Source: the human T2T-CHM13v2.0 reference genome, Homo sapiens
NCBI RefSeq assembly: GCF_009914755.1
Contig: NC_060935.1
Reading direction: 5' to 3' (one strand)
DNA: 64,000 nt
Below the pieces are notes generated by a model. The model worked only from the letters and a program-made list of their open reading frames with translations, had not been told where the DNA came from and searched no databases. Numbering within the stretch: the stretch's first letter is position 1; the number at the start of each line of letters is the position of its first letter. Shown piece after piece: positions 1,115 to 29,574 of the stretch. Position numbers and translations under genes: made by a program.

Positions 1115-1203
1115 GCAGTTTTCTAACTGAACAGAGTGGAAGATTAAGTCTGGTTCTATCATAATTGGAAGAGCTGAGTTTCAACTTTAAAAAGATGATC
1201 ATA

Positions 1204-3705: not shown

Positions 3706-5012
3706 CATCTACTACATTCCAGGTACTACTGGGAATATAGAGTGAACTAACTGAACTGTCTATGACCTCATGGAGCTGACATTCTAGTTTCGTTCTACAG
3801 TTATCCTTTAGGAGGCAGTTTTAGCACATTCAATGCGAGTTCTCAGTTAAAAGTGAAAATGAAAACTTGGCATAGTTTCTAAACTTTAATTTTTTTATCA
3901 TTAGCCTCTTCTCATCATACTGAAACCTCACTGACTTGCAAACTTGAGAGGAAATATACATATTTAATTTAATCTCTGAGTTTTTTGGTTGTGTGTTACT
4001 TAGCAAAATAACACAAAACTGAAGAGAAGTCAAACTTACAAAAAATGCATGCCATATGATTTCATTAATTAAAAGATCATGCCAGTGAAACTAATCACAG
4101 GTATTAGAGGTCGAGATGGTGATTACTTTTGGGGTATAGTGGCTGGAAGGGAGCAAAGGGGCTATATACCTTCTTAGTACTTGCTATTTTCCAATTTTTA
4201 ATTAGGAAATAGGAACACACATGTCTTTACTTTTTGATAATTCATTGAGCTGTACATTTATGATTTATGTCCTTTATGTACTCTTCCAACTAAAACATTG
4301 GCAGTAAATCCCTGTCTCAGATCCTGTTTTCTAGTGAACCCAGACAGAGGGTGCTTGAGCTGACATCTACTATATTCCAGGCACTACTGGAAGTATAGAG
4401 TGAACTAATTGGGCTATCTGTGACCTCATGGAGCTGACATTCTAGTTTCATTCTAGAGTTGCCATTTAGGAGGCAGTTTTAGCACATTCAGTGTGAGTTT
4501 TGAGTTAATAGTGAAAATGAAAAGTTGGCATAGTCCCTAAACTTTATTTTTTTTCCTTATTGTTAGCCTCTTTTCACCATAATGAAACCTCACTGACCTA
4601 CAAACTTAAGAGGAATAATACAGATTTAATTTAATCCCTGAGTTTTTTGGTTGTGTGTTGCCCAGCAATGTAATACAATAATACTGAAGAGAAGTCAGAC
4701 ACACACGAAAATACATGCCATATGATTCCATTAATTAAAACGCCAAAACCAACAAAACTAATCATGGGCATTACAAACAGAGACAGTAATTACTCTTGGG
4801 GGTGTATTGGCTGGAAAGGAGCAAAAAGGCTCTGTACCTTCTTCATACAAGCTATTTTCTAATTTTTAATTGGGAGGTAAGAACACATGTGTCTCTATTT
4901 TTTGATAATTTATCGAGCTGGACATTTATGATTTATGTACTTTATGTGTTCTCCCAACAAAAACACTGGCACTAAATCCCTGTCTCAGGCTCTGTTTTCT
5001 AGTGAACCCAGG
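3706..5012. repeat. Diverged tandem duplication, two copies of ~650 bp (3706-4343 and 4364-5012)
   Basis: Both copies run colinearly from CATCTACTA(C/T)ATTCCAGG through GACCTCATGGAGCTGACATTCTAGTTTC to TAAATCCCTGTCTCAG...TGTTTTCTAGTGAACCCAG. Confidence 0.95.
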
Positions 5013-5193
5013 CTAACACAATGAAAATTAATTTAGAAAAAGGTTTTCCACATTCTTATGTAAATAGATTATACATGAAGACATTTATTTATGTGTAGTA
5101 TATATAGAGATTTATCTGTGCATTAATCATTTTTGCCATGCTATCTATGCAGGGGAAAATAAAACATTATGCCAGCATTCAAGTTTTCATTTC

Positions 5194-5298
5194 AAGAGAA
5201 AGAAAGAAAGAAAGAAGAAAAGAAAGAAAGGAGAAAGAAAGAAAGAGAAAGAAAGAGAAGAGAAGAGAAGGAAAGAAAGAAGGAAGGAAAGAGAGAAA
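5194..5298. repeat. Pure purine (GAAA/GGAA)n low-complexity tract
   Basis: ~105 nt containing only A and G. Confidence 0.95.
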
Positions 5299-8057: not shown

Positions 8058-9943
8058 CTTTTTTTTTTTTTTTTTGGTCCCAGGGTACATGTGCAGGTTT
8101 GTCACATAGGTAAATGTGTGACATGGTGGTTTGCTGCACCTATCAACCCATCAACTAAGTATTAAGCCCCACATGCATTAGCTATTTTTCCTGATGTTCT
8201 CCCTTCCCCCACCCCCCTATGCCCACCAGCAGACCCCAGTGTGTGTTGTTCCCCTCCCTGGGTCCGTATTTTCTCATTGTTCAGTTCCTACTTATGAGTG
8301 AGAACATGCTGCAATGTTTGGTTTTCTGTTCCTTCATTAGTTTGCTAAGGATAATGGCTTCCAGCTCTATTCATATCCTGCAAAGGACATGATCTCATTC
8401 CTTTTTATGGCTACATTGTATTCTATGGTGTATATGTACTACATTGCCTTTATCCAGTCTATCATTGATGGGTATTTGGGTTGATTACATGTCTTTGTTA
8501 TTGTGAATAGTGCTGCAATGAACATAAGCTTGTATGTGTCTTTAAAATAGAATGATTTACATTCCTTTGGATGTTTACCCAGTAATAGGATTACTGGATC
8601 AAATGGCATTTCTTGTTCTAGGTCTTTGAGAAATCACCACACTGTCTTTCAAAATGATTGAACTAATTTACATTTCTACCAACAGTGTAAAAGCATTCCT
8701 ATCTCTCTGCAGCATTGCCAGCATCTGTTGTTTCTTGACTTTTTAATAATCACCATTCTGACTGGTGTGAGATGGTATCTCACTGTGGCTTTGATTTGCA
8801 TTTCTCTAATGATCAGTGAAGTTTAGCTTTTTTTCATACATTTGTTGCCTGCATAGATGTCTTCTTTTGAGAAGTGTCTGTTTGTGCCCTTTGTCCACTT
8901 TTTAATGGGGTTGTTTGGTTTTTTTTCTTGTAAATTTGTGTAAGTTCCTTATAGACACTGGATATTAGATCTTAGTCAGATAGATAGTTGGAAAAATTAT
9001 CTCCCATTCTGTAGGTTGTCTGTTCACTCTGATGATAGTTTCTTCTGCTGTGCAGAAAATCTTTAGTTTAATTAGATCCCATTTGTCAGTTTTTGCTTTT
9101 GTTGCAATTGCTTTTGACATTTTTGTCATGATATCTTTGCCCATGCCTATGTCCTGAATGGTATTGCCTAGATTTTCTTCGAGGGTTTTTGTAGTTTTCA
9201 GTTTTATATTTAAGTCTTTAATTCTTCTTGAGTTAATATTTGTATAAGGTATAAGAAATGGGTCATCCAAAAGCTTCTTAAGCTGATAAGCAACTTCAGC
9301 AAAGTCTCAGGATGCAAAATCAATGGCAAAAATCAACAGCATCCCTATACAACAACAATAGACAGGCAGACAGCCAAATCATGAATGAACTCCCATTTAC
9401 AATTGCTACAAAAGGAATAAAGTACCTAGGAATACAGCTAACAAGGGAAGTAAAGGACCTCTTCAAGGAGAACTACAAGCCACTGCTCAAGAAAATCTGT
9501 GAGAAGCCAAACAAACGGAAAAACATTCCATGCTCATGGATAGGAAGAATCAATATCATGAAAATTACCATACTACCCAAAGTAATTTATAGAGTCAGTG
9601 CTATTTCCATCAAATTACCATTGACATTCTTCACATATTTAGAAAAAACTATTTTAAAATTCATATGGAATAAAAAAGAGCCTGTATGGCCAAGACAATC
9701 CTAAGCAAAAAGAACACAGCTGGAGGCATCATGCTACCTGACTTCAAACTATACTACAAGGCTTCAGTAACCAAAAACGCATGATACTGATATGAAAACA
9801 GGAACACAGATGAATGGAACAGAATGGAGAACTCAGAAATAAGCCCTCACACCTACAACCATCTGATCTTTGACAAACTTGACAAAAACAAGCAATGGGG
9901 AAATGATTCCCTGTTTAATAAATAAATGCTGGGAGAACTAGCT
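8058..9943 (-). mobile_element. L1PA-type insertion with 5' inversion (twin priming)
   Basis: poly(T) at 8058, antisense 3'UTR/ORF2 to ~9265, then an oppositely oriented ORF2 segment 9266-9943 (ORF 9312..9704, [21 protein letters not shown]) ending just 5' of where the other segment starts. Confidence 0.9.
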
Positions 9944-10206
9944 GTGAAAGCCTCACAATCATCATGGAAGGTGAAAATCATGTCTTACATGGTATCAGGC
10001 AAGAAAGAATGAGAGCCCAGTGAAAGGGGAAACCCCTTATAAAACCATCAGATCTTGTGAGACTTATTTACTACCATGAGAATAATATAAGAGAAACTGC
10101 CCCAATGATTCAATTATCTCTCACCAGGTCCCTTCCACAACACGTGGGAATTATGGGAGCTACAATTCAAGATGAGACTTGGGTGAGAACACACCAAAAC
10201 TATATC
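9944..10206 (-). mobile_element. Partial THE1/MST MaLR LTR
   Basis: AAAACCATCAGATCTTGTGAGACTTATT...CACGTGGGAATTATGGGAGCTACAATTCAAGATGAGA; one end missing. Confidence 0.85.
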
Positions 10207-10306
10207 GTAGCTTAAAATAAAGTATTCCAGCTTTAAGATGTTTTATGTAAGATTATGGTAACTACAAAACACAAAGCTATTGAAGATACACAAATGATAC
10301 AGAGAA

Positions 10307-10838
10307 AACCATTGTGAAAGACAACGTGATGATTCCTCAAGGATCTAGGACCAGAAATACCATTTGACCCAGCAATCCATTACTGGGTATATACCCAAAC
10401 GATTATAAATTATTCTACTATAAAGACACATGCACACATATGTTTATTGCAGCACTATTCACAATAGCAAAGACTTGGAACCAACCCAAATGACCATCAA
10501 TGATAGACTGGATAAAAAAAATGTGACACATACACACCATGGAATACTATGCAGCCATAAAAAAGGATTAGTTCATATCCTATGCAGGGACAATAAAGCT
10601 GGAAACCATCATTCTCAGCAAACTAACACAGGAACAGAAAACAAACACTGCATGTTCAGAACATCACACACCAGGGCCTGTTTGGGGGTGGGGGGCTGGG
10701 GAAGGATAGCATTATGAGAAATACCTAATGTAGATGACGAGTTGAAGGGTGCAGCAAACCACCATGGCATGTGTATACCTATGTAACAAACCTGCACGTT
10801 CTGCACATGTATCCCAGAACTTAAAGTATAATAAAAAA
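10307..10838 (+). mobile_element. L1PA 3' fragment (5'-truncated)
   Basis: GATTCCTCAAGGATCTAG...AACAAACCTGCACGTTCTGCACATGTATCCCAGAACTTAAAGTATAATAAAAAA. Confidence 0.92.
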
Positions 10839-13289
10839 CAGAAAGAAATAAGAAAGAATCAAACCTTAGTACTAAAGAAAATAACCAAATAACAAAGGCA
10901 GACAAGAGAGGAAGAAAAGAAAATTGGATTTGCAAAAGAACCAGAAAACAATTAGCAATATGACAATCACAAGTCTTTGTTTATCACTAATATCCTTGAA
11001 TTTAAGTAAATTAAATTTTTCAATTGAAAGTCAGCGTGGCTGAATCAATAAGAAACAAGATCCAAGTATGTGTTTCTGGCAAGAGACCTACTTTAGCTTT
11101 AAAGACACACAAGGCTAAAAGTGGAGGAATGGAAAAAGATATTTTATGCAAATAGAAACCAAAGGAGGTCAGAGGTGGTTATGCTTTTATCAGATAAAAT
11201 AGACTTTATGTCAAAAATTGTCACAAGACAAAGAATGTTATTATTTAGTGATGAAGAGTTCAATTAATCAGGAGGACATAACAATTATAAATATATATGC
11301 ACCAAACTTTGGAGCAACTAAATATATAAAGCACATATTAATGGACATGAAGGGAGAAACAGATAGCAATACAATAATATAGGCATCTTCAATACCTTAA
11401 AAATAGATTAACCAGACAGAAAATTAATCAGGAAATTCTGAACTTGAATTGTCCACCAAATGGACCTAATGGACATATATAGAACATTCCATCCTAAAGC
11501 AACAGAATATTCATTCTTTTCTGGTGCATATGAAACATTCACTAAGATAGATTATATGTTAGGCCACAAAATAAGTGTTAATCATTAAAAAGATTGAAAT
11601 TCTATCAAGTATAATTTCTGACTATACCGATACTTAACTAGAAATCAATAACTGGAGGAATATTCCTCCTCCACAAATTCACAAATATGTAGAAATTAAA
11701 CAACATGCTCCTGAACAACCAAAGAAGAAATTAAAAGAGAAATTTAAAAATATCTTGAGATTAATGGCAATGAAAACACAATAAAACCTATGGAATGCAA
11801 AAAAAAAAGAAAGTTCTAAGAGGAAATTTTATAGCAATAAATGCCAGTATTTAAAAAAGAAAGATTCAAAATAAATAGTCTAACATTACACCTCAGGAAA
11901 ACAGATTTAAAAAGGTCAAAATGAACACAATGTTAGCAGGAAAAAAAAGAGAAAACAAAGATGAGAAATAAAGCGATGATTAAAAAATACAAAGAAAAAA
12001 TTAGTAAACTAGGATTTGATTTTTAAAAAATAAACACAACTGACAAATCTTTAGCAGAACTAATAAAAAAAGAGAGAACACTCAAATAAATAAAATCGGA
12101 AATGAAGGTAGAGACATTACAACAGATGCCTCAGAAATAAAAAGGATAATAAGGGACTATAATGAATAATTAAAGGCCAATAATGAGATAACCTAGCGGA
12201 AATTGATAAATCTTTGGAACATACGATCTACCAAGATAGAATGAGGAAGAAATAGAAAGACTGTGCAGACTGATAACAAATAAAAAGATGGAAGTAGTAA
12301 TTTAAAATTTCTCAACAAAGAAAATCTCAGGACCAGATGGCTTTATTGCTAAATTCTAAATAAATAAATAAATAAATAAATAAAGAGTTAATACCTCTTA
12401 AACTATTCCAAACTAGACAAAGACACCATAAAAAATGAAAGTTGAGACCAGTATATCTGAAGAATATTGATGCAGAAATCCTCAAAATATTAGAAAACTA
12501 AATTCAACAACACATCAAAAATGTTACATATCATGACCAAGTAGGATTTATCCCTGGCATGCAGAGCTGGTTTAATGTATGCAAATCAATCAGTGTGATA
12601 CATCACATTAACAGAATGAAAGACAAAACCACATGATCATTACAACAGATACTGAAAAAGCATTTGACAAAGTTCAACATCCTTTCTTGTTAAAAATACT
12701 CAACAGTTTATGTATAAAAAGAAAGTTCCTCAATATAGTAAAGACTATTTATAAAAACCCACAGCTATCATTATAATTAATATAGAAAAACTGAAATATT
12801 TTTCTCTAATATTTAGTTCAGGGCAAGCATAACCACTTTCACCATTTCTATTCAATATTGTATTAGAAATTCTAGTCAATGTAATCAGAAAAGAGAAAAA
12901 TTAAAAGCTATCCAAATCAGAAAAGAAGTAAAATTATTTCTATTTGCCTATGGCATGATCCTATATGTAGAAAACCTCAAAAACCACCCTCCACCCACTA
13001 GCACTGTTAGAAATAATAAATTAATTGACTAAAGTTGCAGGATACAAAATCAACAAACAAAAATTAGCTAAATGTTTGCACACAATTAAAAACTTAGCTG
13101 AAAAGAAATAAAGAAAACAATCCTATTTATATTAGCATCAAAAATATATAGGAATAATTTTAACCAAGGAATTGAAAGATCTGTATAGTAAAAACTATAA
13201 AACATTGATGAAAGAAATTGAAGACACAAATAAATGGACAGATATCCTGTGTACACACATTAGAAGAAATATTGTTAAAATGTCTATGC

Positions 13290-14091
13290 TGAAGTTTCCC
13301 TGACACCTACACAGGTGGGAACTGCACTGCATGAGTGCCAGCAGAGGCAAATTTAACTCACTTGCTGCTCCACCCTTTGCTGGAGGGGGAGCACAGGTGA
13401 GCAGGTGCAGGACTCAGGGCAAGCACTTTTGGGTGCTGGCAAGAGCAAACTCCATACCAGTCCCATGGCAGCATCTAGGGAGAGGGTGACCGTGATCTCT
13501 GAAGACCCAGAAGAAGTGTTACACTGCCCATTTTAGCTTTGCCATCCAAGGATAGCTTAAGTGTTAATAGCTCAGTGGAGGGTCAGTGTGACAGCGTTTT
13601 GCACCTACACTCATGGCACCCAAGTTCTTGTTCAGCATCCAGGAGGAATGAGGTTGCATGAACGAACTGAAGACGGTAAATGCAAGAGATTTTAGTGCTG
13701 GTGAAAGTGGCTTTCAGTGGGAAGGGGATACGTAAAGGGGATGGATGGAGCGGGAAGGTAATCTTCCCCTGGAGTCTGGCCGAGGACTAGATGCTACACC
13801 ATCAAGCTCTCCCTCTCATGTCAAGCTGCTTCTGTCTGCCATACAACCATAGTCTTCAACATCCAGCTGCATCTCCTCTCTCTGCTGGCTGAGCCTGGGG
13901 TGTTTATGAGCATAGGATGGAGGGTGGGGCAGGATATGGGTGGTTTTGGAAAAGGCGACATTCAAGCAGGAAAACAGGGATGTATGTTCTCACTTTGGGC
14001 TGAGTTATCAGGCTTTTTGGCTTGACGGTGGGGCCCTTGCTGGGGACCTGCCTTCTTCTGCACAGAATTTCCCTGCCTCCTATACTTATCA
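13290..14091 (-). mobile_element. Solo ERV1 LTR (LTR1/LTR27/LTR28-like)
   Basis: TG...CA termini, 4-bp TSD ATGC (13286-13289 / 14092-14095), interrupts host L1 ORF2; minus-strand start TGATAAGTATAGGAGGCAGGGAAATTC. Confidence 0.85.
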
Positions 14092-14364
14092 ATGCTAATA
14101 AAAGCAGTATAAGGATTCAACACAATCCATCTTCACAGAAATATAAAATGAAATGCTAAAATCCACGTGTAATCACAGAAGACCCTGAATAGCCAAAGTA
14201 ATTCTGAGAAACAAGAACAAAGTTGGAAGCATTATGCTTCTTTATTTAAAAGTATATTATAAAGTTATAGTAATCAAAACAGTATAATACTGGCATAAAA
14301 GCAGACATATAAACCAGTGGGACAAAAATATACAACCCAGAAATAAACCCAAATATATATGGTT

Positions 14365-15757
14365 TCTATGGTTTGAAGCCTTGAATGTTTGTGTCCTTTC
14401 CAAAATGCATGTTGAAACTTAATCTCAAATGCAATAGTTTGGGCCTTTAAGAGGAAATTAGGTCATGATGACTCCTCCCTCATGGATGGAATTAAGGTCC
14501 TTATAAAAGAGGCTTCACAAGACATTTGGACTATTTCACCCTTCCATTCATTCCACCATGTGAGGACACAGTTTGTCCTATCTGGAAGATGCAGCAACAA
14601 GATACCATCTTGGAAGCAAGCAATGTGACCCTAAGTAGATGCTGAATCTGTGGCACCTTGATTGTGGACTTCTCAGTTCCAAAACTGTGAGAAATAATTT
14701 TCTATTTTTTATAATTACCCAGTTTGTGGTATTCTGTTATAGCAGCACAAATGGACTAAGAAAGAAACTGGTACCAATAAGTGGAGTACTGCTGTATCGA
14801 ACACCTAAAAATGTGGAAGTGGCATTGGAACTGGGTAATGGGTAGAGGCTAGTCTCTAACAGACGATTCTGGTAAGGACTAAGAAGAAGAGAGCTGTAGA
14901 CAGAACCTCAGTCTTAGAGATTATTTTAGTGGTTGTAATTACAATATCAATTAAAATGTGGGCAGTGAGTGCCATTCTGATGTGGTGTCAGATGGAAATG
15001 AGAAATAATTAAAAACTGGAGGGGGCCAGGTGCAGTGGTTCAATGCCTGTAATCCCATTCACTTTGGGAGGCCGAGGTGGGCAGATTACTGGAGGTCAGG
15101 AGCTCAAGACCAGTTTGGCTGACATGGTGAAACCTCGTCTCTACCAAAAATACAAAAATTAGCCTGTCATGGTGGTGCACACCTATAATCCCAGCTACTC
15201 AGGAGGCTGAGGCTGTAGAATTGCTTGAACCTGGGAGGCGGAAGTTGCCATGAGCCAAGATCGCACCACTACACTCCAGCCTGGGTGACAAAGTGAGACT
15301 CCATCTCAAAAAAAAAAAAAAAAAAAAAGTGGATCAAAGGCCATCCTTGTTATCAAGTGGCAAAGAATATGGCTGAATTGTGTCTATGTCCCAGGGCTTT
15401 GTGGAAGGCAGAACTTAAAGGCAATGAACTAGGATGTTTGGTGAAATAAATATCTAAGTGAAGTGTTCAGGGAACTGACTGCTTATAATAAAATACGGGA
15501 AGAGAGAAATGAATTAAAAGATAAAATGTATAATCAAAAAGTAAGTGAAATTTAAAGATTTAGAAAATTATCAGCCTGGCCATGTGAAGATAAAAGGCTG
15601 TTCAAGAAAGAAAATTAAAGGTATGGCCAAGCTACTGTTTAAATAAGAAATATATATGTGTAGGTAGAAGCCAGATACTATTCACTAGAACAGTGGAGGG
15701 GTGATCCCAGTGATATTTGGAAGATCTTTGGGGCTCCCACTCCCATTACAGGTGCCA
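14365..15757 (+). mobile_element. MaLR LTR (MST/MLT1A-like) plus start of internal region
   Basis: LTR ends GTTATAGCAGCACAAATGGACTAAGA (~14761), then the internal signature ACTGGTACC...AAAATGTGGAAGTGGCATTGGAACTGGGTAATGGGTAGAGGCT. Confidence 0.82.
15024..15328 (+). mobile_element. Alu (AluS-like) within MaLR internal region
   Basis: Full dimer with poly(A); imperfect TSD AAAAA(C/G)TGGA. Confidence 0.95.
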
Positions 15758-15799
15758 AGTGCTAAGTTTTTATTGACAGATGAATGGATAAACTGTGAG

Positions 15800-15835
<36 letters not shown>

Positions 15836-17097
15836 ATATAATTCAGACTTAAAAAAGGAGATCTTGCCATTTGCCACAACATGGAAGAAACTGGAGAAAC
15901 TTATGCTAAGTAAACTTACCCAGACACAGAGACATATTGCACAATCTCATTTATATGTGGAATCTAAAATAACAACAAAACAACTAACAATATAGAATTC
16001 AGAGAGATAGAGAGTGAAACTGTGGTTACCAGGGGTAGAAGAAGAGAGAGAGAGAAAACTGGTAGGGGAGAGCAGCAGGTCAAAAGATACAAAGTGAAAG
16101 ATAAGTAGGATGAGCAAATCTAGAGTTCTAATGTACAGTACAAAGACGATAGTTAATAACAAGGTATTGTATTTGGCATTTTTGCTAAATGACTAGATTT
16201 TAGCTGCTCTTGCCACACATAGAAATACAAACGAGTGACTATTTGAAATAATAGATATGTTAATTTTTAAATTTTTATTATTATACTTTAAGTTCTGGGA
16301 TACATGTGCAGAATGTGCAGGTTTGTTACACAGGTATACACGTGCCATGGTGGTTTGCTGCACCCATCAACCCGTCGTCTACATTAGGTATTTCTCCTAA
16401 TGCTATCCCTCCCCTTGCCCCCCACCCCCCGACAGGCGTCGGTGTGTGATGTTCCCCTCCCTGTGCCCATATATTCTCGTTGTTCAACTCCCACTTATGA
16501 GTGAGAATATGCAGTGTTTGGTTTTCTGTTCCTGTGTTAGTTTGCTGAGAATGATGGTTTCCAGCTTTATCCATGTCCCTGAAAAGGACATGAACTCATT
16601 CTTTTTTATGGCTGCATAGTATTCCATAGTATATATGTGCCACATTTTCTTTATCCAGTCTATCATTGATGGGCATTTGGGTTGGTTGAAGTCTTTGCTA
16701 TTGTGAATAGTGCTGCAATAAACATACGTGTGTATGTGTCTATATAGCAGAATGATTTATAATCCTTTCGGTATATACCCAGTAATGGGATTGCTGGGTC
16801 AAATGGTATTTCAAGTTCTAGGTCCTTGAGGAATCACCATACTGTCTTCCACAATGGTTGAATTAATTTACACTCCCACCAACAGTGTAAAACTATTCCT
16901 ATTTCTCCACATCCTCTCCAGCACCTGTTGTTTCCTGACTTTTTAATGATCACTATTCTAATTGGCATGAGATGGTATCTATTGTGGTTTTGATTTGCAT
17001 TTCTCTAATTACCAGTGATGATGAGCTTTTTTTCCTATGTTTGTTAGCCATATAAATTTCTTCTTATGAGAATTGTCTGTTCATATCCTTCACCCAC

Positions 17098-17393
<296 letters not shown>

Positions 17394-17581
17394 TCCTTCA
17401 CCCACTTTTTGATGGGGTTGTTTGTTTTTTTCTTGTAAGTTTGTTTAAGTTCCTTGTAGATTCTGGATATTAGCCCTTTGTCAGATGGATAGATTGCAAA
17501 AATTTTCTCCCATTCTGTAGGTCGCCTGTTCACTCTGATGATAGTTTCTTTTGCTGTGTAGAAGCTCTTTTGTTTAATTAG

Positions 17582-17911
<330 letters not shown>

Positions 17912-18971
17912 AATTTTGGCTTTTGTTGCAATTGCTTTTGGTTTTATTCATGAAGTCTTTGCCTATGCCTATGTCCTGAATGGTATTGCCTAGGTTTTCT
18001 TCTATGGTTTTTATGGTTTTAGGTCTTATGTTTGAATCTTTAATCCATCTTGAGTTAATTTTTGAATAAGCTGTAAGGAAGTGGCCCAGTTTTAGTTTTC
18101 TGCATATGGCTAGCCAGTTTTCCCAACGTCATTTATTAAATACGGAACACTTTCCCGATTGCTTGTCTTTGTCAGGTTTGTCAAAGATCAGATGGCTGTA
18201 AATGTGTGGTGTTATTTCTGAGGACTCTGTTCTGTTCCATTGGTCTATATATCTTTTTTGGTACCAGTACCATGCTGTTTTGGTTACTGTAGCCTTGTAA
18301 TATAGTTTGAAGTCAGTAGTAACCATTTTATTCTCTATATGTATCTCATAATATCATGTTGTATACTTTAAATATGTACAATGAAATTTATTTTACAAAA
18401 TGTAAGTGCTTGATATCCTGATACTTAATGTCTAAATACTTAAGACATGTTCCCTAAGAATAATATTCTACTATATAGCTTTAATACAATTATTACATCC
18501 CAAAATTTATTAATATAATAATCCAATATATAGTTCTTATTACAATTTCCTCCATTATTCCCTAATTATAAAAATATGAGGATAATGGAGGGGCTTATGT
18601 GTTTATATATAAATAAACACATAAATTATGGTTCACTCATACATTTGGTTCTCTTGTCCTTTGAGTCTTTCATAATCTACTCATAGAGCAGTTTCTCACC
18701 ATTTTTTGTTTGTTTGATTTTGCATTTATTTTAGTCTTTTATGACACTGACTTTTGTTTTTGTTTTTTTAGTCTGGAGCATTTGTTTCATATAATGCCCC
18801 ATATCTTGGACATTTCTTCTTGTTTTCCATGAGTTCAAGTTAATAATTTTAATAAAAACACAACATAGATGATGTGACTTACCAACTTTTCGTTGCATCA
18901 CACAAGGATGAACATAATAACAGTTTATTTCAATTTTGGTGGTGGTTACTTTAATCAATTGATTCGGGTGG

Positions 18972-19339
18972 TGTTATCAGTTGAATGTTTATGTCTTCCC
19001 GAAATTCACATGTTAAAATTCCAACCCCTAAAGTGATGGTATTAAAAAGTGGGGCCTTTGCAAGGCGATAAGGTAACAAAGGTGGAGTCCTCATGAATGG
19101 GATTGGTGCTCTTATAAAAGAGACCCCACAGAGCTCTCTTGCTCCTTTTGACCATGAGAGGACACAGCAAGAAGACAGACATCCTTGAACCAGAAAGTTG
19201 GCCTTCATCACACTTGAGGATATGCCAGCAATTTGACGTCAGATGTCCTGGCCTCCAAAATCGTGAGAAATAAATGTTTGTTTTTTCAGCCACCTAGATT
19301 ATGGTATTTTTGTTATAACAGTCTGAACAGACAAAGACA
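18972..19339 (+). mobile_element. Solo MLT1A-like MaLR LTR
   Basis: TG...CA, 368 bp, 5-bp TSD GGTGG (18967-18971 / 19340-19344). Confidence 0.88.
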
Positions 19340-19673
19340 GGTGGTATTCACATGCTATTTTCATTTTAAAGGTATATTTTTAACTTCATAACTAAAAAGG
19401 AATCAGTAGGCTTATGCTTTTAAGACAAAGTGAATATTATGTTTCAAAAAATATTTTCACTGAATGGTGTTAGCATCCATTAAATTTGTCATCTCATCCT
19501 CTATTCTCAGCCTAAATGTATTAGTCTACTTTATTACTCAAGTTACAACTGAAAGACGGAAACTCGGATATCAAGGTATAAAAGTTTTGCATTTCCTGGG
19601 AACACACAATTGTAGTAAACTCTTAGATAAATTGATCCTAATTATGTGTCAATGCTCATTATTCATGAGGAAG

Positions 19674-20976
19674 TTAGAGAATAAGAAGGCTTTAACTCTT
19701 TGGACCCAAAACAACTATCTGAGTTTTTGTTTCTCAGCTAGTCCTGTTTCCCAGGTCCCATCTGCATCTCAGCTTTCATTTCCCACTCTCCAACTCTCTC
19801 CTTCACGACCAGGGGAATCTTCTATTCCCTAAGGACATCTGTCCTTCTCTTATTTGATCTTATGTCAGTTTGACAAGGCATGGTTTAAGTCAATGTTTCC
19901 CCATGTAGCTGAGGTGCTAAGTGCAAATATTAACTGATTCAGAGAACCATCAACCTTGTCAAAACCATAAAACTGCTCTTTATTAGTTGACCCAAAATCA
20001 TAATTTGGACAGAGATATTTCAAGACATTTTCAGATATAAACCATAAAACAAATATACCAAATAATATATGTAAGACACAAAGAGAAAGCAATTGATCCG
20101 AGGCTACTATGTATATAACAAATAAGATTTTATCTTGTTAAAACACCTGCATGCCTGCAGAAATCAGTCAGAACCAGATGACTCTTTCTAGCTGTTGATT
20201 CCTCCTCCTCACAAAGAGCCCACACACTTCATTTTGCTTAATTGTCACTTTGAGGAAAATGTTTCTTCCTTTCTTTCCTTCACACTTCCCTCTTTTCCTT
20301 CATTATAGGAAGAAACTTCTCACTTACATATGAGAAATCACAGTCACTTTTGTGAAATAGCTTATGCTGAACATTAGTCCTTCCTTCTCTGGATCCCTTG
20401 AATACTGGAATAGTTGCCAGGCTGTGTTTTCAACTGAGGACTTCCTGTTGCCCAATACTAATGTATCCAATGCAGATTACAAGAAAGATTAAAAGTCTTG
20501 CAAACACATGAATATTTTTTCTTTCTATCCCAAGCATTTAAGACTTTCTTAGTACTTTTCTTAAGATAATATACGCAAAGGGAGAGATAAGTGGAGGAGT
20601 TAGAGGAATATAGTAATGGAGGAAGGAAAAGGAGATTTTGCTTACTAGTTTCTAGCTTTTGTTTTCCAGCAATCCAAAGAACAATATCTCACTAAAAAGT
20701 TTATGATACATGCTTTAGAAAGATATATCAAAAGAGAAGAGTTCCTAGAGTACAGGGTATGAGAGGTATCATGGAATGGAGGGGGAAACACGATAAATAA
20801 GAGAAGGACACATGTCCTTAGGGAATAGAAGATACCCCTGGTCCTGAAGGAGAGGGTTGGAGAGTGGGAGATGAAAGCTGAGATGCAGATGGGACCTGGG
20901 AAACAGGGCTAGCTGAGAAACAAAAACTCGGATAGTTGTTTTGGGTCCAAAGAGTTAAGGCCTTCTTATTCTCTAA
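19674..20976. repeat. 182-bp inverted repeat (arms 19674-19855 and 20795-20976, 939-bp spacer)
   Basis: Manual alignment of arm 1 to the reverse complement of arm 2: equal length, no indels, 8 mismatches. Explains the shared peptide in ORFs 19464..19832(+) and 20818..21345(-). Confidence 0.97.
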
Positions 20977-22166
20977 GGAGGGATCCCTAGAACTAGAAAT
21001 GCCAGGGAGACAGTTTTGCCCATGGACCTGCAGGAACAAGAGATATTTTATGGAGAATGTGCACAGAGAGTTGTATATATTGTTAGAGAAACACCAAAAT
21101 TTATCTCCAACTCCTTTGTTGTCAAACATAAATATCTGTTTCTGAGCTCTGCCACGGGAACTTGGGAGCACTTCAGGTGAGTGCAGAGCCAGGAAAAGAT
21201 GCATCAAAATGAGTAGAAAAAGTCGTGGCATTTTACTCGTCCTGGCCTCTCTCACCCTGATACAGTGAGACTCGATCTGGAGAAAACCCTGAAGTCCCAG
21301 CTTCTCCCTTAGGGAAGCAACAGGAGTGGGCCATGAGTCCAGCATTCTGGGTTTCCAGCGGGGTTGCCCAAGGCACTGGTTTCTGTCTTATATGACTCAG
21401 AGTGCAGAGTTTGGATGCCATGTTGGGGGCCTCTGAGAACAAAGGCAAGCACCCTGTTTCAGCACTAGGGAGATTGTAGTACTGAAGGCGGACACCAGGG
21501 GGAGAAAGAGGTTACGGGCTCCAGACAAGAAACAAGCAAACCTCTTTAACTGGGAAATTACACACACAAGCCCATAAAAAGCTTGAAGGGCCCCTAGAAT
21601 CTCTAGCTATGCTAACCAATAAAGGTCTTCCAATGTATGAAGCCAGTCTGTAATGACTGGAGGAGGTTGGGTGTATTTTTCAAATATTAAAAGCACTGCA
21701 GGATAAAAACTAAGAGCATGTCTAGTAAAATATGATAAACATATCTAAGATGCATGCTAATAGACAAAAAATAAATGATTAGAGTGCATTTGTCTAAAAA
21801 ATTCATCAAATATATGGCAATACAGTTGTTGTCAGTAGGACTGGGCAAAGGGACATTGCTGCATATTGCAAATTTTGTGTGACCCTTTGCCTCTGGATAT
21901 TGGGACCTCTCAAGATTCATGCTGCTGCCACCCTGTGATGTGTTTATTATCTACAATGGACTGTGTCAAACATTATGGAAAAATCCTCATGATACCAAGG
22001 TTGTGTGGCTTTCACTGCTCCATAATATCAGTTTCTTTCTCTAACACACAGGCCAAGTCTGGACTAATTGGCAGAAACTGACTTACCAGTTTTGCAGCCA
22101 GAACTTGGGAGCTCTGTACTTTTAAGAGCTAAATCTATTTTTTCTTCCGTAGTTGGCAACACCATT

Positions 22167-22313
22167 ATGACATCACAACCTGTTTCCAATGAGGCCATCA
22201 TAATGCTCCCATCAAATGTCATCAACTTCTCCCAAGCAGAGAAACCCGAACCCACCAACCAGGGGCAGGATAGCCTGAAGAAACGTCTACAGGCAAAAGT
22301 CAAATTTATTGGG
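22167..22313 (+). CDS. MS4A6E: MS4A6E coding exon 1 (aa 1-49, MTSQPVSNEAIIMLPSNVINFSQAEKPEPTNQGQDSLKKRLQAKVKFIG)
   Basis: Acceptor TTTCTTCCGTAG| at 22152, ATG at 22167, phase-0 donor GGG|GTAAAT at 22314; recognisable MS4A6-family N-terminus. Confidence 0.96.
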
Positions 22314-23114
22314 GTAAATCTAATTCAGAACATGTTGGAGAGGGGTTAGGGGAAGTGGGAAGAGATGATGTATGTTTTGGGACTGGTCATCCTTGTGAGT
22401 GTGGAGACCCTTAAGTTTTGCTGGAGGGGCTTTGGGGTAGAAGCCACTTGGAGAAAACTGTCCCAGAACTTTTCCACAGGAGATTGTCTTAGAAACGTTT
22501 TTTCCCTTATTCTGAATATGAGGAGTTGATTTTCTGTTGTTGTCTTTGTATTTTTGCAATACAGTACTTCTCTATATTTTCTTTTACGAAAGTAATGGTG
22601 GTAAATAATGACATATTGTATATACATTTTTCTGTATTTCACAACTGCATGCTTAACAATCCACACTGATTCTTTGCAAGGAATTTTTCCCTTACTGCAA
22701 ATTACAGAAAAAATATACCTCCTCTCCCTGTTTTCTTCTTACCTTTTTGAGAATGGAAATGATATTTACCTTTTATTTGTCTGTTTCTCCTCTCATCCAG
22801 AGTTTATTAAAGAAGCTGTATTGCATGAAGGGAGGAGAGAAAGAAGGGATCTATCTTGGATTGGGAGGGAAACACAGAGTTTTGGTTTCTAGACTTGCCT
22901 CTGCACTTACGTGATCTGAGGTGAGGCACTCTGTTTGACTGGATTTCAGGACCTGGTGGGACTGGTTTCCTTGCCTCATGTACAATCATATGGGTTTCTA
23001 TGAGGCTCAGGTGACAAAAGGTCTAGGAAACTTCTTGGTAAATGATAATAGAGCTGTGAATCTCTGAGGTGGATGTCAGGAAGGAAAACTACCTCCTAAG
23101 ACAGAGCTTCAGTT

Positions 23115-23273
23115 ATACATGAGAACATGCAGTATTTGGTTTTGTTAGTTTGCTAAGGGTGGTGGCCTCTAAATGATGAGAACACATGGACACGTAGAAG
23201 GGAACAATGCACACTGGGGCCTTTCAGAGGGTGGAGGGTGGGAGGAGGGAGAGGATCAGGAAAAATAACTAAT
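23115..23273. mobile_element. Short L1 3'UTR fragment in two opposite orientations (MS4A6E intron)
   Basis: GAGAACATGCAGTATTTGGTTTT...TTAGTTTGCTAAGG (antisense) joined to GAGAACACATGGACAC...GAGGGTGGAGGGTGGGAGGAGGGAGAGGATCAGGAAAAATAACTAATG (sense). Confidence 0.75.
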
Positions 23274-23423
23274 GCACAGAAACTCAATTTGGAAGCTCTG
23301 GCTACAAAAATCTCCCAAAGCCAGCAAGGAAGTCAGAGAGAGTGCCCAGAAAAATGCCAGTTCTTTCTTTCCCTCGTTGGTATTTAGAGATTATTGTTTG
23401 GAACCCTCAGTTACAATCCAACA

Positions 23424-23645
23424 CTAGATCTGTGCTGTGCAATGTAACTGTCTATGATGGAAATGAAATGTAACTTTCTATGATGATGGAAATCCACAAC
23501 AGCTGCACTGTTACAATATGGCGGTCACATGTGGCTATCGATGATGTGAAATATGGATAGTGCAACTGAATTTTAAATTTTACTTAATTTTACTTCAAAT
23601 ATAAGTAGCCCATGTGGCTACTGGCAACCATACTGAGTAGCCTAG
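23424..23645. mobile_element. MER3-like hAT DNA transposon remnant
   Basis: CTGTGCTGTGCAAT...ATGATGGAAAT...CACATGTGGCTA...TGAATTTTAAATTTTACTTAATTT...CATGTGGCTACTGGC. Confidence 0.7.
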
Positions 23646-24505
23646 TACAAGAGTAATGTTTTCAAACTTTTAGTAGGAAATATATGGGCCTCTTACTCCA
23701 GAGAACAATCCCACAGTGAACATGCAGGAAGCTCAAGGATGCAGGATGTGGTCTCGGGGTGGGCTCAGACTCACCAGAGACATCGAGGCTTTAGTGAGTT
23801 CTACTCTTGTCACACATTGTACCAGCCCTTTTTGAGATTGAAGAAGAGTGCCATCTCAAGACAAATCTAGCTTATTCTAAGAAATATAGACTCTAGGCAT
23901 CAAGACTACTACTGGCTACTAGGAGGCCCAGGAGTGTACACTTCAGTCATTATGTTGGGAAATTGGGGTCCCAGAGCATCAACTGGTGAGTTCCTAAAAG
24001 AAGAAGTGCCCATATGGGATTAAATAACACTCTACTGTATGGCTGTGGGATGTGCCCTGGAGCCTACCTACCTGTAACAATAGCTTTCAGAATGCTGTGA
24101 GCTCAGTTCTCTTTTCTGTGTGAGTTGGAGTAAAGGAAGTCACTTCTGAGGTCAGTTTATTTATTTCCTCCACTTCATAAATGTAGAAATGAGAACCAGA
24201 GTGGGAAATAAAACCAAGGAACTGAGTACCCAAGGGAACAAGCTGGGTCAAGTCTATATTGTGACCTCAATTTTCTGACATCCAGTCCAGGCCTTTATTC
24301 TGTACCTCCCGCTGCCTCCCACACATTACACCATCCTTGGGCCCGCACCTAGACCTCTGCCCACAGCCACCCCATGCTGCGCTCAATGTGGCCAGTCATA
24401 TGCCTGCCCAGGTTCCAGGGCCTGCCTGAGACTCAGAACCACCCCCTCACTCATCTTTGAGAGGTGTGCTTTTGAGAGAGGCAATAGGCACGCAAAAGTG
24501 AGCTA

Positions 24506-24584
24506 TTAGGTTGGTGCAAAGGTAATTGCGGTTTTGCCATTGAAAGTAGTGGCAAAACCCAAAATTACTTTTGCACCATGCTAA
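24506..24584. mobile_element. MADE1 (mariner-derived MITE), palindromic
   Basis: TA|TTAGGTTGGTGCAAAGGTAATTGCGGTTTTGCCATT...GTGGCAAAACCCAAAATTACTTTTGCACCATGCTAA|TA; TA TSDs, long TIRs. Confidence 0.93.
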
Positions 24585-25011
24585 TACACCATCCAGATTT
24601 TCTGTGTGGTTGATGCTTGCACGAGGGGTTTCTGAGTTGGCCGAGAGAGAAACTGCATCTGGTACATTGCCACCTTTGCTTGTGGTCACACTCACAGTAA
24701 TTTTCCAGGCAAGCCTCGTGGGCCCTGCTATCTGTCCCAGGGAAAGAATTTAGGAGAGTAACATTCTCTACCACACTACTGAGGTCCTGTTTGAGGGGAA
24801 CCAGTTCATATGTTCATTCATTCAGCCAAGTTTTACGTTGCAGATTCTGAGTTTTTGGCTGGACACTGGAGAGGCCTACAACAAGAAATGATCCCTCCGG
24901 GACTTCCTGAGGGAGACAGATAAGGGAATAACTTGCAATGTAATGGCAAAAAGGGATAAGAGAGATTCGTGGCCCTTTGGGAATGATTCTTACCCACCAT
25001 GTCTCTTTCAG

Positions 25012-25218
25012 GTGCATAGCAGCCTGGCTGGAAGCATTCTGAGTGCTCTGTCTGCCCTGGTGGGTTTCATTCTCCTGTCTGTCAACCCGGCTGCATTAAA
25101 TCCTGCCTCATTGCAGTGTAAGTTGGACGAAAAGGATATACCAACCAGACTTCTTCTTTCTTATGATTATCATTCACCTTACACCATGGACTGCCATAGA
25201 GCCAAAGCCAGTCTGGCT
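25012..25218 (+). CDS. MS4A6E: MS4A6E coding exon 2 (aa 50-118; TM helix plus Cys-flanked extracellular loop)
   Basis: Acceptor TCTCTTTCAG|GTG, 207 nt, donor GCT|GTAAGT; VHSSLAGSILSALSALVGFILLSV...QCKLDE...DCHRAKASLA. Confidence 0.96.
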
Positions 25219-27136
25219 GTAAGTATTTTTTAGATGGGATGTTCTAATTTTATGAGGTTTCTGAAAGCCTTGATTTCTTATTATTCCATCCTTTGAAAAT
25301 CTCTCTGTTAATTCTGGTTTGGGCATCTGGAGGAAGGCCAAGGTTATGTAAATCAAAGGGGGGCTGCATGGATGAGATTAAGGGGATTACATACTAACAG
25401 AGTGGAATTGAAATGTCAGATAAGGTTGATGATGAAAAACTAAAACTTACGGTTTGTAGAGTTTCTTAATTACTCAACTAATCTAATTTTGGAGGCATAA
25501 ATTATGAGTTTGTCAAACTGAGAATGTTGGTACATAGAGTGGTGAATTCAGATTGGCAAACAGAGCAGAAAGACCCGGGTGATCAGAAAATGCTGACAAG
25601 GAAATGTGGTATGTGTGTGTGGTAGGGGGTCAGTTTGGTCTAAAAAGACATCAGACTAAAGATGAAGAAACAGAGAATAGGAAATATGGGGTTAGATGGT
25701 AAGGGTTTCTCCTAATGATTACAATAATGAATAATACTAATCAGGTGAAACGGTAACATTATTATTGCTTTTTGTTATAGCTGAAAGAAGTGTGATATCT
25801 TAAATCAGGAGATAAGAAATATAGGGAGATGGAGAGTGTAACTGAGAATTATCGCAGGAGAATTCTCTCTCTTTGGAAGAAGAAAAACAATGAAGTTTGG
25901 CTAACAGAAATAATGTGTCTGAAGTTGAAAAATTAAGGGGTATGTGCATGGCCAGCAACGCATTGAGAGGAAAACAGGCAACATAAAAGTAAAGAAGTTG
26001 CAGAATATTTATTGTCCTGCAATCATAAAAATGAGGTCAGCCAAGAACTCACCTGGACGATGGACAGATAGAAAGGTCTGGTCAAATTCATGCTTGTACA
26101 GCACCCATTATAAACTGAGCCTTGCTTCCAAGGTAATGGTATAATGAGGAAAAAGTGCATGCAAATGAGGCTGACAGTAATTGGTACAAATTCCACCTTG
26201 GGAAAAATTCTGGAGAGAAATTTGGGAGAAATTTGGTAGTGATAAAGTATAAATTCATGATGGGACGATTTTATATTGGAAATAAGAGAGATTCTGTTGA
26301 GCTTGCTTGCTGGAACAATTTCTAGGTAATGGACACAACATGTATCTTCTATTTAACTGTGTGTAAATACCACAAAACAAAAGTTCATGTGATCAAATTA
26401 TCCCCCTTTATTATCAGATGACCAGTTCTGCACAAAGAATGTCTCAGGACAGAAATGGTAGAACTCATCCTTGTGAGTTGGTGTTGGTGATTAGCAACAG
26501 TTTACTACCTTCACTGTTTTTTTCCAAGTCTTAAAACACCAAAAACAGCAAAAATAAAAAATAAACAACAAAAATAAAAAACATCCAAACAGGTTCAGAT
26601 ACATAGACAGGGATGTCAATACTGAATTTTACAAAGGGCTTACACAGCCAAAACCTCCTTGATCCTCACAAATCTCTGAGAAATAAATGTTAGTATGCAT
26701 GTTTGATACATGAGGAAACAGGAGCTAGAGAAAGAAAGAGACTTGTCCAGGCTTACACAGCTACTCAGCAGTAAAGATGAGACTATAATGGAGCTGCTGA
26801 TTCTCAGTCCTGGGAGCTATTACACCACTCTGCTCTCTTACTGAGTGAACAATGTCATCAGAACTACGTACGTCTCAAAGAAGTGAGAAACAAGTGTATG
26901 AAATGGATTAGTTGATTTAGTTACTACTCATCTTCCCTTCTCTTCTCAAGAAACTGAATGAGTGAAGGAGTTGAATTAAGACAATTGTGAGGAGGAGCAG
27001 TTTTGTTTTCCTGATTGTTTCCTTACTTCATTCTCTAATGGTTGAGGTGGTCTTCATCTCTATGGTCACCTCTAAACTAGGCATGAAAGCTTCGGCTGAC
27101 CCAAGCATCACTGATATTTTATTTCTTGACTTTCAG

Positions 27137-27226
27137 GGAACTCTGTCTCTGATGCTGGTTTCTACTGTGTTGGAGTTCTGCCTAGCTGTGCTCACTGCTG
27201 TGCTGCAGTGGAAACAGACTGTCTGA
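27137..27226 (+). CDS. MS4A6E: MS4A6E coding exon 3 (aa 119-147 plus TGA; last TM helix)
   Basis: Acceptor TTGACTTTCAG|GGA; GTLSLMLVSTVLEFCLAVLTAVLQWKQTV*; spliced total 49+69+29 = 147 aa; a further donor TGG|GTGAGT lies at 27236. Confidence 0.95.
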   Translation, partial: GTLSLMLVSTVLEFCLAVLTAVLQWKQTV

Positions 27227-28023
27227 CTTCCCTGGGTGAGTGTGCTGGCCAGCCTCGCTTAATCTTGCCTAGTGTATCTTATCTCTGCACTGTGTTGAGT
27301 ATGTCACCAAGAGTGGTAGAAGGAACAATCAGTCAGTCATGAGATACACATGGGAGGTCATTTAAATGGTGATGGAAGACCGAGAAGAAAAGCAGATGGT
27401 AATTGAGTAGCTGACAAGCTGAGAGTTCACTGGATATGAAAATAGTTAAAATGAGAACTCAACTGGTTCATTCTTCCCATTTTGTCATTGAAGGGAATGA
27501 GACTCTGGGAAGTTAAATGACTGGGCTGGCATTATGATATGAGTTTGTACCTGTGCTGAGGACGCTAGAACCTGGCTTGCCTCCCTTCTAAGCAGAAACA
27601 ATTTCTGCCACAACCACTAGTCTCTTTAATAGTATTGACTTGGTAAAGGGCCTTTACACATGTGACTGGATCCAGTGAATGTCTTATGCTCTGCTTTTCC
27701 TCCTGGTGATTTTAAAATTCTTTTTCCTTTTAAAAGATATATTAAAAATGTATTGTTGAATCAAATTCCAAGGGATACCACCCCTATGGACTTATTGCTT
27801 TATTTAACTGAATTTAAAAGCCTTGATTTATCCAGAATTTTATTATAGAGAATAGAAGAATACTAGACTGATAAATTGTAATTATTTGAAGAACCCAGTG
27901 ATCTGCTCTACTTGTCTTGGATTAGCTAAGAATTCTATGTATACAGTTGGAAAAAATGGCATATCCACATGTATCTTGAACCTGAGTAAAGTCTGAAGAC
28001 CTAACATACTTTGTTTCTTCTAA

Positions 28024-28127
28024 AGTGTGCTTTTCCTGCCTCACAGTTACTCATGTCCTCAAAGACGACTCATGATGCTGGATATGAAGAACTATTGACT
28101 TCTTGGGAAAAAACGGAGAAATATTAA
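28024..28127 (+). pseudogene. Fossil MS4A6A-type terminal coding exon, now presumably MS4A6E 3'UTR
   Basis: Translates SVLFLPHSY / MSSKTTHDAGYEELLTS, matching the recalled MS4A6A C-terminus SVLFLPHSYIGNSGMSSKMTHDCGYEELLTS, with an internal deletion and an altered acceptor. Confidence 0.85.
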
Positions 28128-28586
28128 TTGGAAAGTTGATTTTTATGATAATATGGAAAACCTAACCATTATAAAAAAGCAAACTTGAGTTTCCTAAATG
28201 TAAGCATTTAAAGTAATGCATATTTGTTTTAAAAAATTATTTCGCTGTCATTTATGATATGTGTTCATTGGGGATCTCTTGGTTTGCCTGATACTGACTT
28301 CAGCAAAAGCACAGGGCTGTAAATTACCATTTACTAGACTAGCCAAATAGTCTTAGACATTTCCCAGAAAACTAGGCAGAATGATGATTCAATGGATCAC
28401 AGTGAGGCAAAGGATACAGCTTTTTCTTATACTCCTCAATTGTGAACAGGAGTTAACTGATTTGCTGTGGTGCGCAGACTCTTTTATCACAGGTGCTACT
28501 GATTTATCCCATGTATTTTACTCATTAGTGCATAAAGGCAAACCCCATAATGAAGTCTCCGAGTGTATGAAAGTAGCCGGCTTCAA

Positions 28587-28657
28587 AATAAAATCTTTGA
28601 GTGCATACTTTATTTTAATACTTATTTTGTTATTTTTTCCTTTAAACACAGAATAAA
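28587..28657 (+). terminator. Candidate polyadenylation signals for MS4A6E
   Basis: AATAAA at 28587-28592 followed by a T-rich tract, and AATAAA at 28652-28657; usage not provable from sequence. Confidence 0.45.
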
Positions 28658-29412
28658 TCAACAATGACAGACATAAACCCAAATTTTAACTCAATTTTCT
28701 CCTCACCAATATTCAAACAAAACTAATGAGTGAACAAATGCTAACCAGGAATGCTTATCTGTTATGAAGAGACAACCAGTTCATACTTACGTCCTTATTT
28801 CAAAATAAAAAAGACGAATTGTTTGAGTATAACAAACATAAGCCTCACCTTGCTCATGCACACACACGCACACACACACACACACGTGTAAAAAAGTATT
28901 TCAATTTTATATGACCTCCATTTCTTTGAAAGATTTTGTCATATTTCCTTGCTCTGACCCTCTGTAGCAGGGGTCATACTTCATACTCACTGTCTCAGAT
29001 ATCCTGATACTCAGAGAGTTTCTCTGCTCTTTTTTTCCAGTCTCAAATGGAACTGTCAGTTTCTTTGATTTTAGCTTTATCTTCAAATCTGTTTCATTAG
29101 GTCTTCTCCCTGTCCTTTGCACCCCCCACTGACACACACCATTTCTTTTATTTATTTGCCTATTGTGGACATTCAACTTTTATTGATACTTATTGGATAC
29201 CAGACACTATGCTTTTAATGCCAGGGCTACCAAAGTGAATAAGATACATGATTTGGCTTCAAGATATTTATAGTCAAATAAGGAAAACAGAGATGACAAT
29301 GAAGTTAGGGATTTCGCTAACTGTTATTTGAGCACAGAATAAAGACACTAACTGTTATTTGAGCACAGAATAAAGAATATCATCTTCTGCCTAAAAGAAT
29401 GTAGAGGATAAA

Positions 29413-29415
<3 letters not shown>

Positions 29416-29468
<53 letters not shown>
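29416..29468. repeat. Compound (TG)n(AG)n microsatellite
   Basis: Direct reading. Confidence 0.95.
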
Positions 29469-29469
<1 letters not shown>

Positions 29470-29574
29470 AGGGGGGGGAGAGAAAGACAGAAAAGACAGA
29501 ATGTACTTCCTTTGAAAATCCACCTCCCCACTATTAATCACATGGTGCCACCTTCCGCCACAGGAGAGGACCAT

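What the first reader, a model, noticed from the sequence alone, without database searches (positions are those of the whole stretch)
19674..20976. Unexplained 182-bp indel-free inverted repeat just upstream of MS4A6E, with strand-biased G-U mismatches
Seen: the arms are 174/182 identical around a 939-bp spacer, end ~1.2 kb 5' of the first coding exon, and do not resemble any repeat family I recognise. Five of the 8 differences are T in arm 1 opposite G in arm 2, so a + strand transcript could fold into a 182-bp stem with only 3 true mismatches; the - strand would have 8. Inference: (a) a substrate for recurrent NAHR inversion or gene conversion of a promoter-proximal 0.94-kb segment; (b) a scar of the duplication that created MS4A6E; or (c) a non-Alu dsRNA source (ADAR, Dicer, PKR) in myeloid cells. 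The bias could also be ordinary transition mutation.
Basis: partly seen in the sequence, partly recalled or inferred. Interest (0 to 1): 0.72.

Follow-up and report, generated by a model that had tools for sequence, protein, structure and literature searches.

The report
Old inverted duplication in MS4A6E intron
A 182-letter piece of DNA in the first intron of the human MS4A6E gene has a backwards second copy 939 letters away, most likely left by a one-off copying slip in an ape or monkey ancestor, an ordinary kind of mutation with no sign of a function.

Summary
The repeat is real: arms 19674-19855 and 20795-20976, 174 of 182 identical, no indels, 939-bp spacer. A genome search finds only one more copy, 137 kb away on the MS4A6A side of the inverted MS4A6A/MS4A6E duplication. 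Arm 2 sits inside a longer block shared with that side; arm 1 has no shared flanks. So arm 2 is the original and arm 1 a local inverted copy. The arms differ by 4.4% and share 16 differences against the paralogue (about 10%), so the copy postdates the gene duplication. This fits the common 'inverted duplication' class. The G-U bias is borderline (P about 0.05-0.06, post hoc), comes from both arms, and transversions are not depleted. No inversion is listed here in 44 and 65 genomes; the longest perfect match is 37 bp. The repeat is intronic, under an LTR-derived first exon, in a gene reported mainly in testis. Ordinary; interest 0.14.

The parts
19674..19855 (+). Arm 1: derived inverted copy (inferred templated insertion) of arm 2
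   Evidence: 174/182 to arm 2; neither flank matches the MS4A6A-side paralogue; no target-site duplication or extended junction homology
19856..20562 (.). Left part of spacer: old sequence with no counterpart on the MS4A6A side; holds a 67% match to a chr1 locus at 19952-20143
20563..20794 (+). Right part of spacer: collinear with arm 2 in the paralogue, so in ancestral orientation relative to arm 2
   Evidence: 11.4% divergence from C11:60146670-60146442
20795..20976 (+). Arm 2: original copy, embedded in block 20563-21167 that is 87% identical to C11:60146670-60146070 (inverted)
21167..21685 (.). Dispersed old repeat (LTR-like by recall) that contains the RefSeq enhancer 21307-21601; also present on the MS4A6A side
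   Evidence: some 40 genome matches at 65-89%; enhancer from hub annotation
21685..21686 (.). Blunt junction: 11.4 kb present on the MS4A6A side (C11:60133506-60144890) is absent here
14381..14764 (+). LTR-like repeat (MaLR type by recall) holding MS4A6E exon 1 (14533-14686), with TATAAAA at 14502 and a GT donor after 14686; it puts the inverted repeat inside intron 1
   Evidence: 59-63% matches to the 18982-19340 element and three of its genome-wide relatives; exon from hub annotation

Best explanation
Arm 1 is a backwards copy of arm 2, likely made once by a replication or repair template switch that copied 182 bases from the opposite strand and resumed about 0.9 kb upstream, after MS4A6E had split from MS4A6A, and it is probably a fixed, neutral scar. 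Shown: copy number, which arm is embedded in paralogous sequence, and the order of divergences. Inferred: the template-switch mechanism, an age in the ape or Old World primate ancestor (4.4%, 95% interval 1.9-8.5%, set against recalled primate divergences), fixation and neutrality.
For: Three copies only. Arm 2 has paralogous flanks on both sides and arm 1 on neither. The arms share 16 differences against the paralogue; private changes are balanced, 4 in arm 1 against 3 in arm 2 plus 1 opposite a gap. Arm-arm 4.4%, arm-paralogue 9.9% and 10.5%. Size and distance match the class: stretches under 1 kb inserted within 5 kb, 54% of sequenced inversions (PMC4617611 passage); median 284 bp, mostly 1-15 bp microhomology (PMC12350158 passages). 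No inversion row at CHM13 chr11:60.28 Mb in 44 or 65 genomes. The 5:3 transition:transversion ratio is ordinary.
Against: The pre-insertion site was not found, since the paralogue lacks 2738-20562; junction microhomology and any deletion at the site are therefore untested. No ape or monkey sequence could be read, so age and fixation are inferred. All 5 transitions give G-U on the transcribed strand (P 0.0625 two-sided; 0.05 in simulation). An old complete conversion of an older arm would look the same.
Confidence: 0.8

Rival explanations
1. The arms act as a recombination substrate: the 939-bp spacer has flipped at least once in humans or apes, or the arms are kept alike by conversion (including an origin as a staggered-break inversion that later flipped back).
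For: 96% identity at under 1 kb; close repeats can recombine through matches shorter than 50 bp (PMC2583991 passage). A 97% patch between MS4A6A and MS4A6E suggests conversion happens in this cluster.
Against: Longest perfect run is 37 bp, against 134-232 bp (mitotic) and 300-500 bp (meiotic) efficient segments. Mismatches are, if anything, more even than random (P 0.075 for a longest run of 37 or less). The right part of the spacer is collinear with arm 2 in the paralogue. No call in two tables that hold chr11 calls as small as 282-784 bp. The one printed 'MS4A6E inversion' fits a paralogue misalignment elsewhere.
Confidence: 0.1
2. The repeat is a selected RNA hairpin: the LTR-driven + strand pre-mRNA folds into a 182-bp stem used by ADAR or Dicer, probably in testis, and G-U pairs were tolerated while mismatches were purged.
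For: Intronic on the + strand (hub annotation). The predicted stem closes over the full arms. All 5 transitions preserve pairing on that strand. It is the best-matched inverted pair of the 3 in intron 1.
Against: Every transition gives G-U on one strand or the other; P 0.05-0.06 post hoc, and 0.19 for five or more G-U among eight differences. 3 of 8 differences are transversions, as expected without selection (P 0.50), and none is compensatory. No Rfam match. No paper holds both MS4A6E and 'A-to-I editing'. Incidental folding or editing would not show function.
Confidence: 0.05
3. Arm 1 was created at the same time as the MS4A6E duplication, as part of a complex rearrangement, and was later homogenised with arm 2.
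For: The MS4A6E copy is a patchwork of the MS4A6A side, with breaks at 2737/20563, 21685/21686 and 23274; arm 1 lies 0.7 kb from one of them.
Against: It needs a conversion covering all 182 bp evenly; 16 shared differences are spread along the arm and the ends are sharp.
Confidence: 0.04
4. The arms are terminal inverted repeats of a DNA transposon, or two copies of a dispersed repeat.
For: The geometry resembles a non-autonomous element; Dfam could not be queried.
Against: Only 3 copies. Arm 2 is continuous on both sides with paralogous sequence that has no partner arm. No target-site duplication seen at arm 1.
Confidence: 0.01

Closest known systems
Inverted duplication (inv-dup) class of small structural variants (Sudmant 2015, PMC4617611; Schloissnig 2025, PMC12350158)
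   Same: A stretch under 1 kb copied in inverted orientation within 5 kb of its source; no long homology at the junctions; copy gain rather than balanced inversion.
   Different: Those are polymorphic, near-identical copies; this one is 4.4% diverged and probably fixed, and its empty allele was not seen.
Inverted-repeat-mediated (NAHR) polymorphic inversions
   Same: Inverted homologous arms flank a short unique segment.
   Different: Arms are short with a longest perfect run of 37 bp; no inverted allele in the two tables read.
Intronic inverted-Alu dsRNA substrates of ADAR (recalled)
   Same: Long inverted arms about 1 kb apart on one pre-mRNA, predicted to pair.
   Different: Unique sequence, higher identity (96% vs 79-81% for the two Alu-length pairs in the same intron); no editing evidence.

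Membership tests
Inverted duplication SV class | Duplicated stretch under 1 kb in inverted orientation within 5 kb of the other copy | tested here: met
   182 bp, 939 bp apart; definition
Inverted duplication SV class | One copy is the source in its native context, the other an insertion | tested here: met
   Arm 2 has paralogous flanks, arm 1 none
Inverted duplication SV class | Junctions with 0-15 bp microhomology and no long homology | tested here: inconclusive
   No homology extends beyond the arm ends; microhomology cannot be scored without the empty site
Inverted duplication SV class | An allele or ancestor without the inserted copy exists | not testable with these tools
   No other primate genome or haplotype was available; the paralogue lacks the whole site
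NAHR-mediated polymorphic inversion | Both orientations segregate | tested here: not met
   No row at this place among 16 of 16 chr11 rows in Porubsky 2023 Table S1, nor any 'chr11-60' id in the readable part of the Logsdon 2025 workbook; rare alleles not excluded
NAHR-mediated polymorphic inversion | Uninterrupted identity near the efficient processing length | tested here: not met
   Longest run 37 bp vs 134-500 bp; exceptions under 50 bp are reported there
DNA transposon / MITE | Dispersed copies, terminal inverted repeats and target-site duplication | tested here: not met
   3 copies, all in this cluster; the paralogue has one arm only
Functional dsRNA (ADAR/Dicer substrate) | Both arms on one transcript | tested here: inconclusive
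   Intron 1 of NM_139249.4 by hub annotation; no read data
Functional dsRNA (ADAR/Dicer substrate) | Selection for pairing (compensatory changes, fewer mismatches) | tested here: inconclusive
   5 G-U, 3 mismatches, 0 compensatory among 8 differences; P 0.05-0.19 by statistic
Functional dsRNA (ADAR/Dicer substrate) | Editing or small RNAs over the arms | not testable with these tools
   No RNA data; literature search empty

The most novel reading that the evidence does not exclude
An LTR promoter brought a chance inverted duplication into a testis-expressed pre-mRNA, where it folds into a 182-bp non-Alu hairpin that has been kept pairable (all five transitions G-U) and is edited or diced, a primate-specific RNA structure born from a replication slip in the Alzheimer-linked MS4A cluster.
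Probability: 0.05. Interest if true: 0.55.

Novelty: new member of a known kind. Interest (0 to 1): 0.14.

Why it matters
As read here it matters little: one more, older example of the commonest small inversion-type event. Its uses are practical. It is a dating marker for MS4A6E history, and a place where short-read or alignment pipelines could call false inversions. If primate comparison showed selection for pairing, or testis RNA showed editing or small RNAs, it would be a clean case of a structured RNA arising from unique sequence.

Tried and rejected
Rfam scan of 19300-21700: 0 matches at E up to 1. Search for the empty insertion site through old repeats on either side of arm 1: the two fragments (19339-19468, 19952-20143) match different loci, and those loci do not match each other, so this was uninformative. 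Searches of 10900-14950 and 2700-8200 returned only dispersed old repeats among the 40 candidates scored each, with no MS4A paralogue. Feuk 2005 human-chimp 'inversion' in MS4A6E (828 bp, 93.77%): rejected as this feature; it fits window about 22450-23277 aligned to MS4A6A (coordinate conversion recalled). Supplements that gave nothing: Giner-Delgado 2019, 12 of 18 files searched, no 'MS4A'; Schloissnig 2025, whose index lists no inversion coordinate table; Yoo 2025 ape genomes, unreadable. DNA hairpins at the four arm ends: 1 of 4 windows folds better than shuffles (19810-19910, z -3.3), post hoc and not used as evidence. A PU.1-like core GAGGAAGT spans the left junction of arm 1, but 4 occur in the window (motif recalled). 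No genome-wide background count of such repeats was obtained.

Full report
Observation. The inverted repeat is as described: arms 19674-19855 and 20795-20976, 182 nt, 939 nt apart, with 8 substitutions and no gap. Five place T in arm 1 opposite G in arm 2 on the + strand; three are C/C, A/A and C/C. Similarity ends abruptly on both sides. The perfect runs are 17, 28, 21, 37, 14, 10, 9, 22 and 16 bp. By the hub annotation both arms lie in intron 1 of NM_139249.4, not upstream of the gene.

Copy number. A search of the whole genome with arm 1 gave 3 matches from 3 candidates: the two arms and one copy at C11:60146260-60146441, 89% identical. The tool warns that such searches can miss common or very old repeats. 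A search with 20563-21690 did find some 40 dispersed matches at 65-89% for the neighbouring 21167-21685 element but none beyond those three for the arm. Rfam gave 0 matches. Dfam was not available.

Which arm came first. The third copy lies in a region that mirrors this window in inverted orientation: window 1-2737, 20556-21685 and 21686-29574 align to C11:60150773-60146910, 60146677-60144890 and 60133506-60122075. That the last block is MS4A6A is read from its near-identical first coding exon and recalled gene order. Arm 2 is continuous with that paralogue for 232 bp on its left and 190 bp on its right. Arm 1 matches for exactly 182 bp, with no flank. So arm 2 is the source and arm 1 the inserted copy. 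The right part of the spacer is in its ancestral orientation relative to arm 2, which a simple staggered-break inversion would not leave. The paralogue lacks 2738-20562 altogether, so the empty site cannot be seen.

Timing. The arms differ at 8 of 182 sites (4.4%; 95% interval 1.9-8.5%). Each differs from the paralogue at 18 or 19 of 181 (9.9%, 10.5%), like the flanks (11.4%, 13.2%). The arms share 16 differences against the paralogue; 4 changes are private to arm 1, 3 to arm 2, and 1 falls opposite a gap. Arm 1 is therefore younger than the MS4A6A/MS4A6E duplication, or was fully converted later. Against recalled divergences (orangutan about 3%, macaque about 6.5%) this points to the ape or Old World primate ancestor; that date is an inference.

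The G-U bias. Any transition yields G-U on one strand or the other. Five of five on the same strand has P 0.0625 two-sided. In a neutral simulation a strand difference of five or more occurs in 5.0% of runs, and five or more G-U on one strand in 19%. Three transversions among eight is what neutrality predicts (P 0.50). Polarised with the paralogue, the five are 3 C-to-T in arm 1 (one beside an indel) and 2 A-to-G on the + strand in arm 2 (one at a CpG, so uncertain). No change is compensatory. The arm duplex is -341.9 kcal/mol on + and -327.0 on -; whole-region folds are equal. The bias is borderline and noticed after the fact. Germline transcription is known to skew substitutions by strand (recalled; only a search listing seen), which could add to it.

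Recombination. In Porubsky 2023 Table S1 (PMC10150506, supplement rows; 44 sample columns), none of 16 chr11 rows lies between 55.63 and 62.09 Mb (CHM13 v1.1 coordinates taken as equal to v2.0, recalled). In Logsdon 2025 (PMC12350169, supplement rows; 65 samples; file cut when stored), consecutive rows of table 37 go from 50.29 to 62.09 Mb and no id begins 'chr11-60'. These tables hold chr11 calls of 282, 392 and 784 bp, so the size is within reach; rare alleles are not excluded. The 37-bp longest run is far below the 134-232 bp and 300-500 bp efficient segments, though events through under 50 bp occur between close repeats (PMC2583991 passages). A longest run of 37 or less has P 0.075 under random placement, so there is no recent conversion tract. 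Feuk 2005 (PMC1270012, supplement rows and passages) lists an 828-bp human-chimp inversion inside MS4A6E at 93.77% identity, 835 bp in chimp. Sliding an 828-bp frame along the MS4A6E/MS4A6A alignment peaks at 22450-23277 with 93.2% and 832 bp (835 bp one and two steps earlier), where recalled offsets also place it. It is probably a paralogue misalignment and not this spacer; the authors note many false positives.

Transcription. Exon 1 (14533-14686) lies in an LTR-like repeat related to the element at 18982-19340, with TATAAAA 31 bp upstream of the annotated start (MaLR label recalled). Silva-Gomes 2021 (PMC9290968, passages) reports MS4A6E almost exclusively in testis among tissues, though it also clusters with myeloid members in blood-cell data. 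A + strand pre-mRNA would be predicted to fold the stem; two Alu-length inverted pairs of 79-81% share the intron. No paper in the library holds both MS4A6E and 'A-to-I editing'. 'MS4A6E' with 'inversion' gave 21 papers; none of the 20 listed is on this feature by title or abstract start. No RNA data could be read.

Mechanism and comparison. The anatomy matches the inverted duplication class: 54% of sequenced inversions, nearly all under 1 kb and inserted within 5 kb of the source (PMC4617611 passages); 277 events of median 284 bp, mostly with 1-15 bp microhomology, read as replicative (PMC12350158 passages). I infer a single template switch that copied arm 2 from the opposite strand and resumed 0.9 kb upstream, followed by neutral drift (0.8). 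Two class features are met; the junction and empty-allele features are untested. Rivals: recombination substrate 0.10, selected RNA hairpin 0.05, by-product of the gene duplication with later conversion 0.04, transposon 0.01. Other papers touched without bearing: PMC2826416 and PMC3511432 (passages), PMC8755829 (first fifth), PMC6748972 (12 of 18 supplements), PMC12058530 (supplement unreadable). Unseen ape and pangenome tables could bear on spacer orientation.

Verdict. Real, explained and ordinary: a new member of a known kind. Interest 0.14.

Noticed in passing
window 14381-14764 and junction 21685/21686: MS4A6E lacks 11.4 kb that lies upstream of the first coding exon on the MS4A6A side (C11:60133506-60144890; recalled to hold the MS4A6A first exon), and its annotated first exon sits in an LTR-like repeat with a TATA box 31 bp upstream. 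This suggests a promoter swap that would explain the reported testis expression.
   Followed up: partly
window 22772-23140: Patch with only 10 differences in 369 bp from MS4A6A (97%) against about 90% around it (P 6e-8 at 10%, post hoc); probable gene conversion between the paralogues, covering the alternative exon 22801-22920.
   Followed up: partly
window about 22450-23277: The human-chimp inversion listed in MS4A6E by Feuk 2005 (828/835 bp, 93.77%) fits an alignment of human MS4A6E to the inverted paralogue MS4A6A, so it is probably a false positive.
   Followed up: yes
window 23274: About 3.2 kb present on the MS4A6A side is absent in MS4A6E; the break falls inside an L1-like 3' fragment (label recalled) with 3-4 bp of imperfect homology.
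   Followed up: partly
window 21167-21685: The RefSeq enhancer 21307-21601 lies inside a dispersed old repeat that is also present, with extra internal sequence, on the MS4A6A side.
   Followed up: no
window 2738-20562: 17.8 kb, partly old fragmented repeats, with no counterpart on the MS4A6A side, where a TA/CA microsatellite and AT-rich stretch stand instead.
   Followed up: partly
window 19667-19674: The left junction of arm 1 completes GAGGAAGT, a PU.1-like core (motif recalled); 4 such 8-mers occur in the window, so it may be chance.
   Followed up: partly
window 19810-19910: Three short DNA hairpins cluster at the inner end of arm 1 (z -3.3; 1 of 4 windows tested).
   Followed up: no
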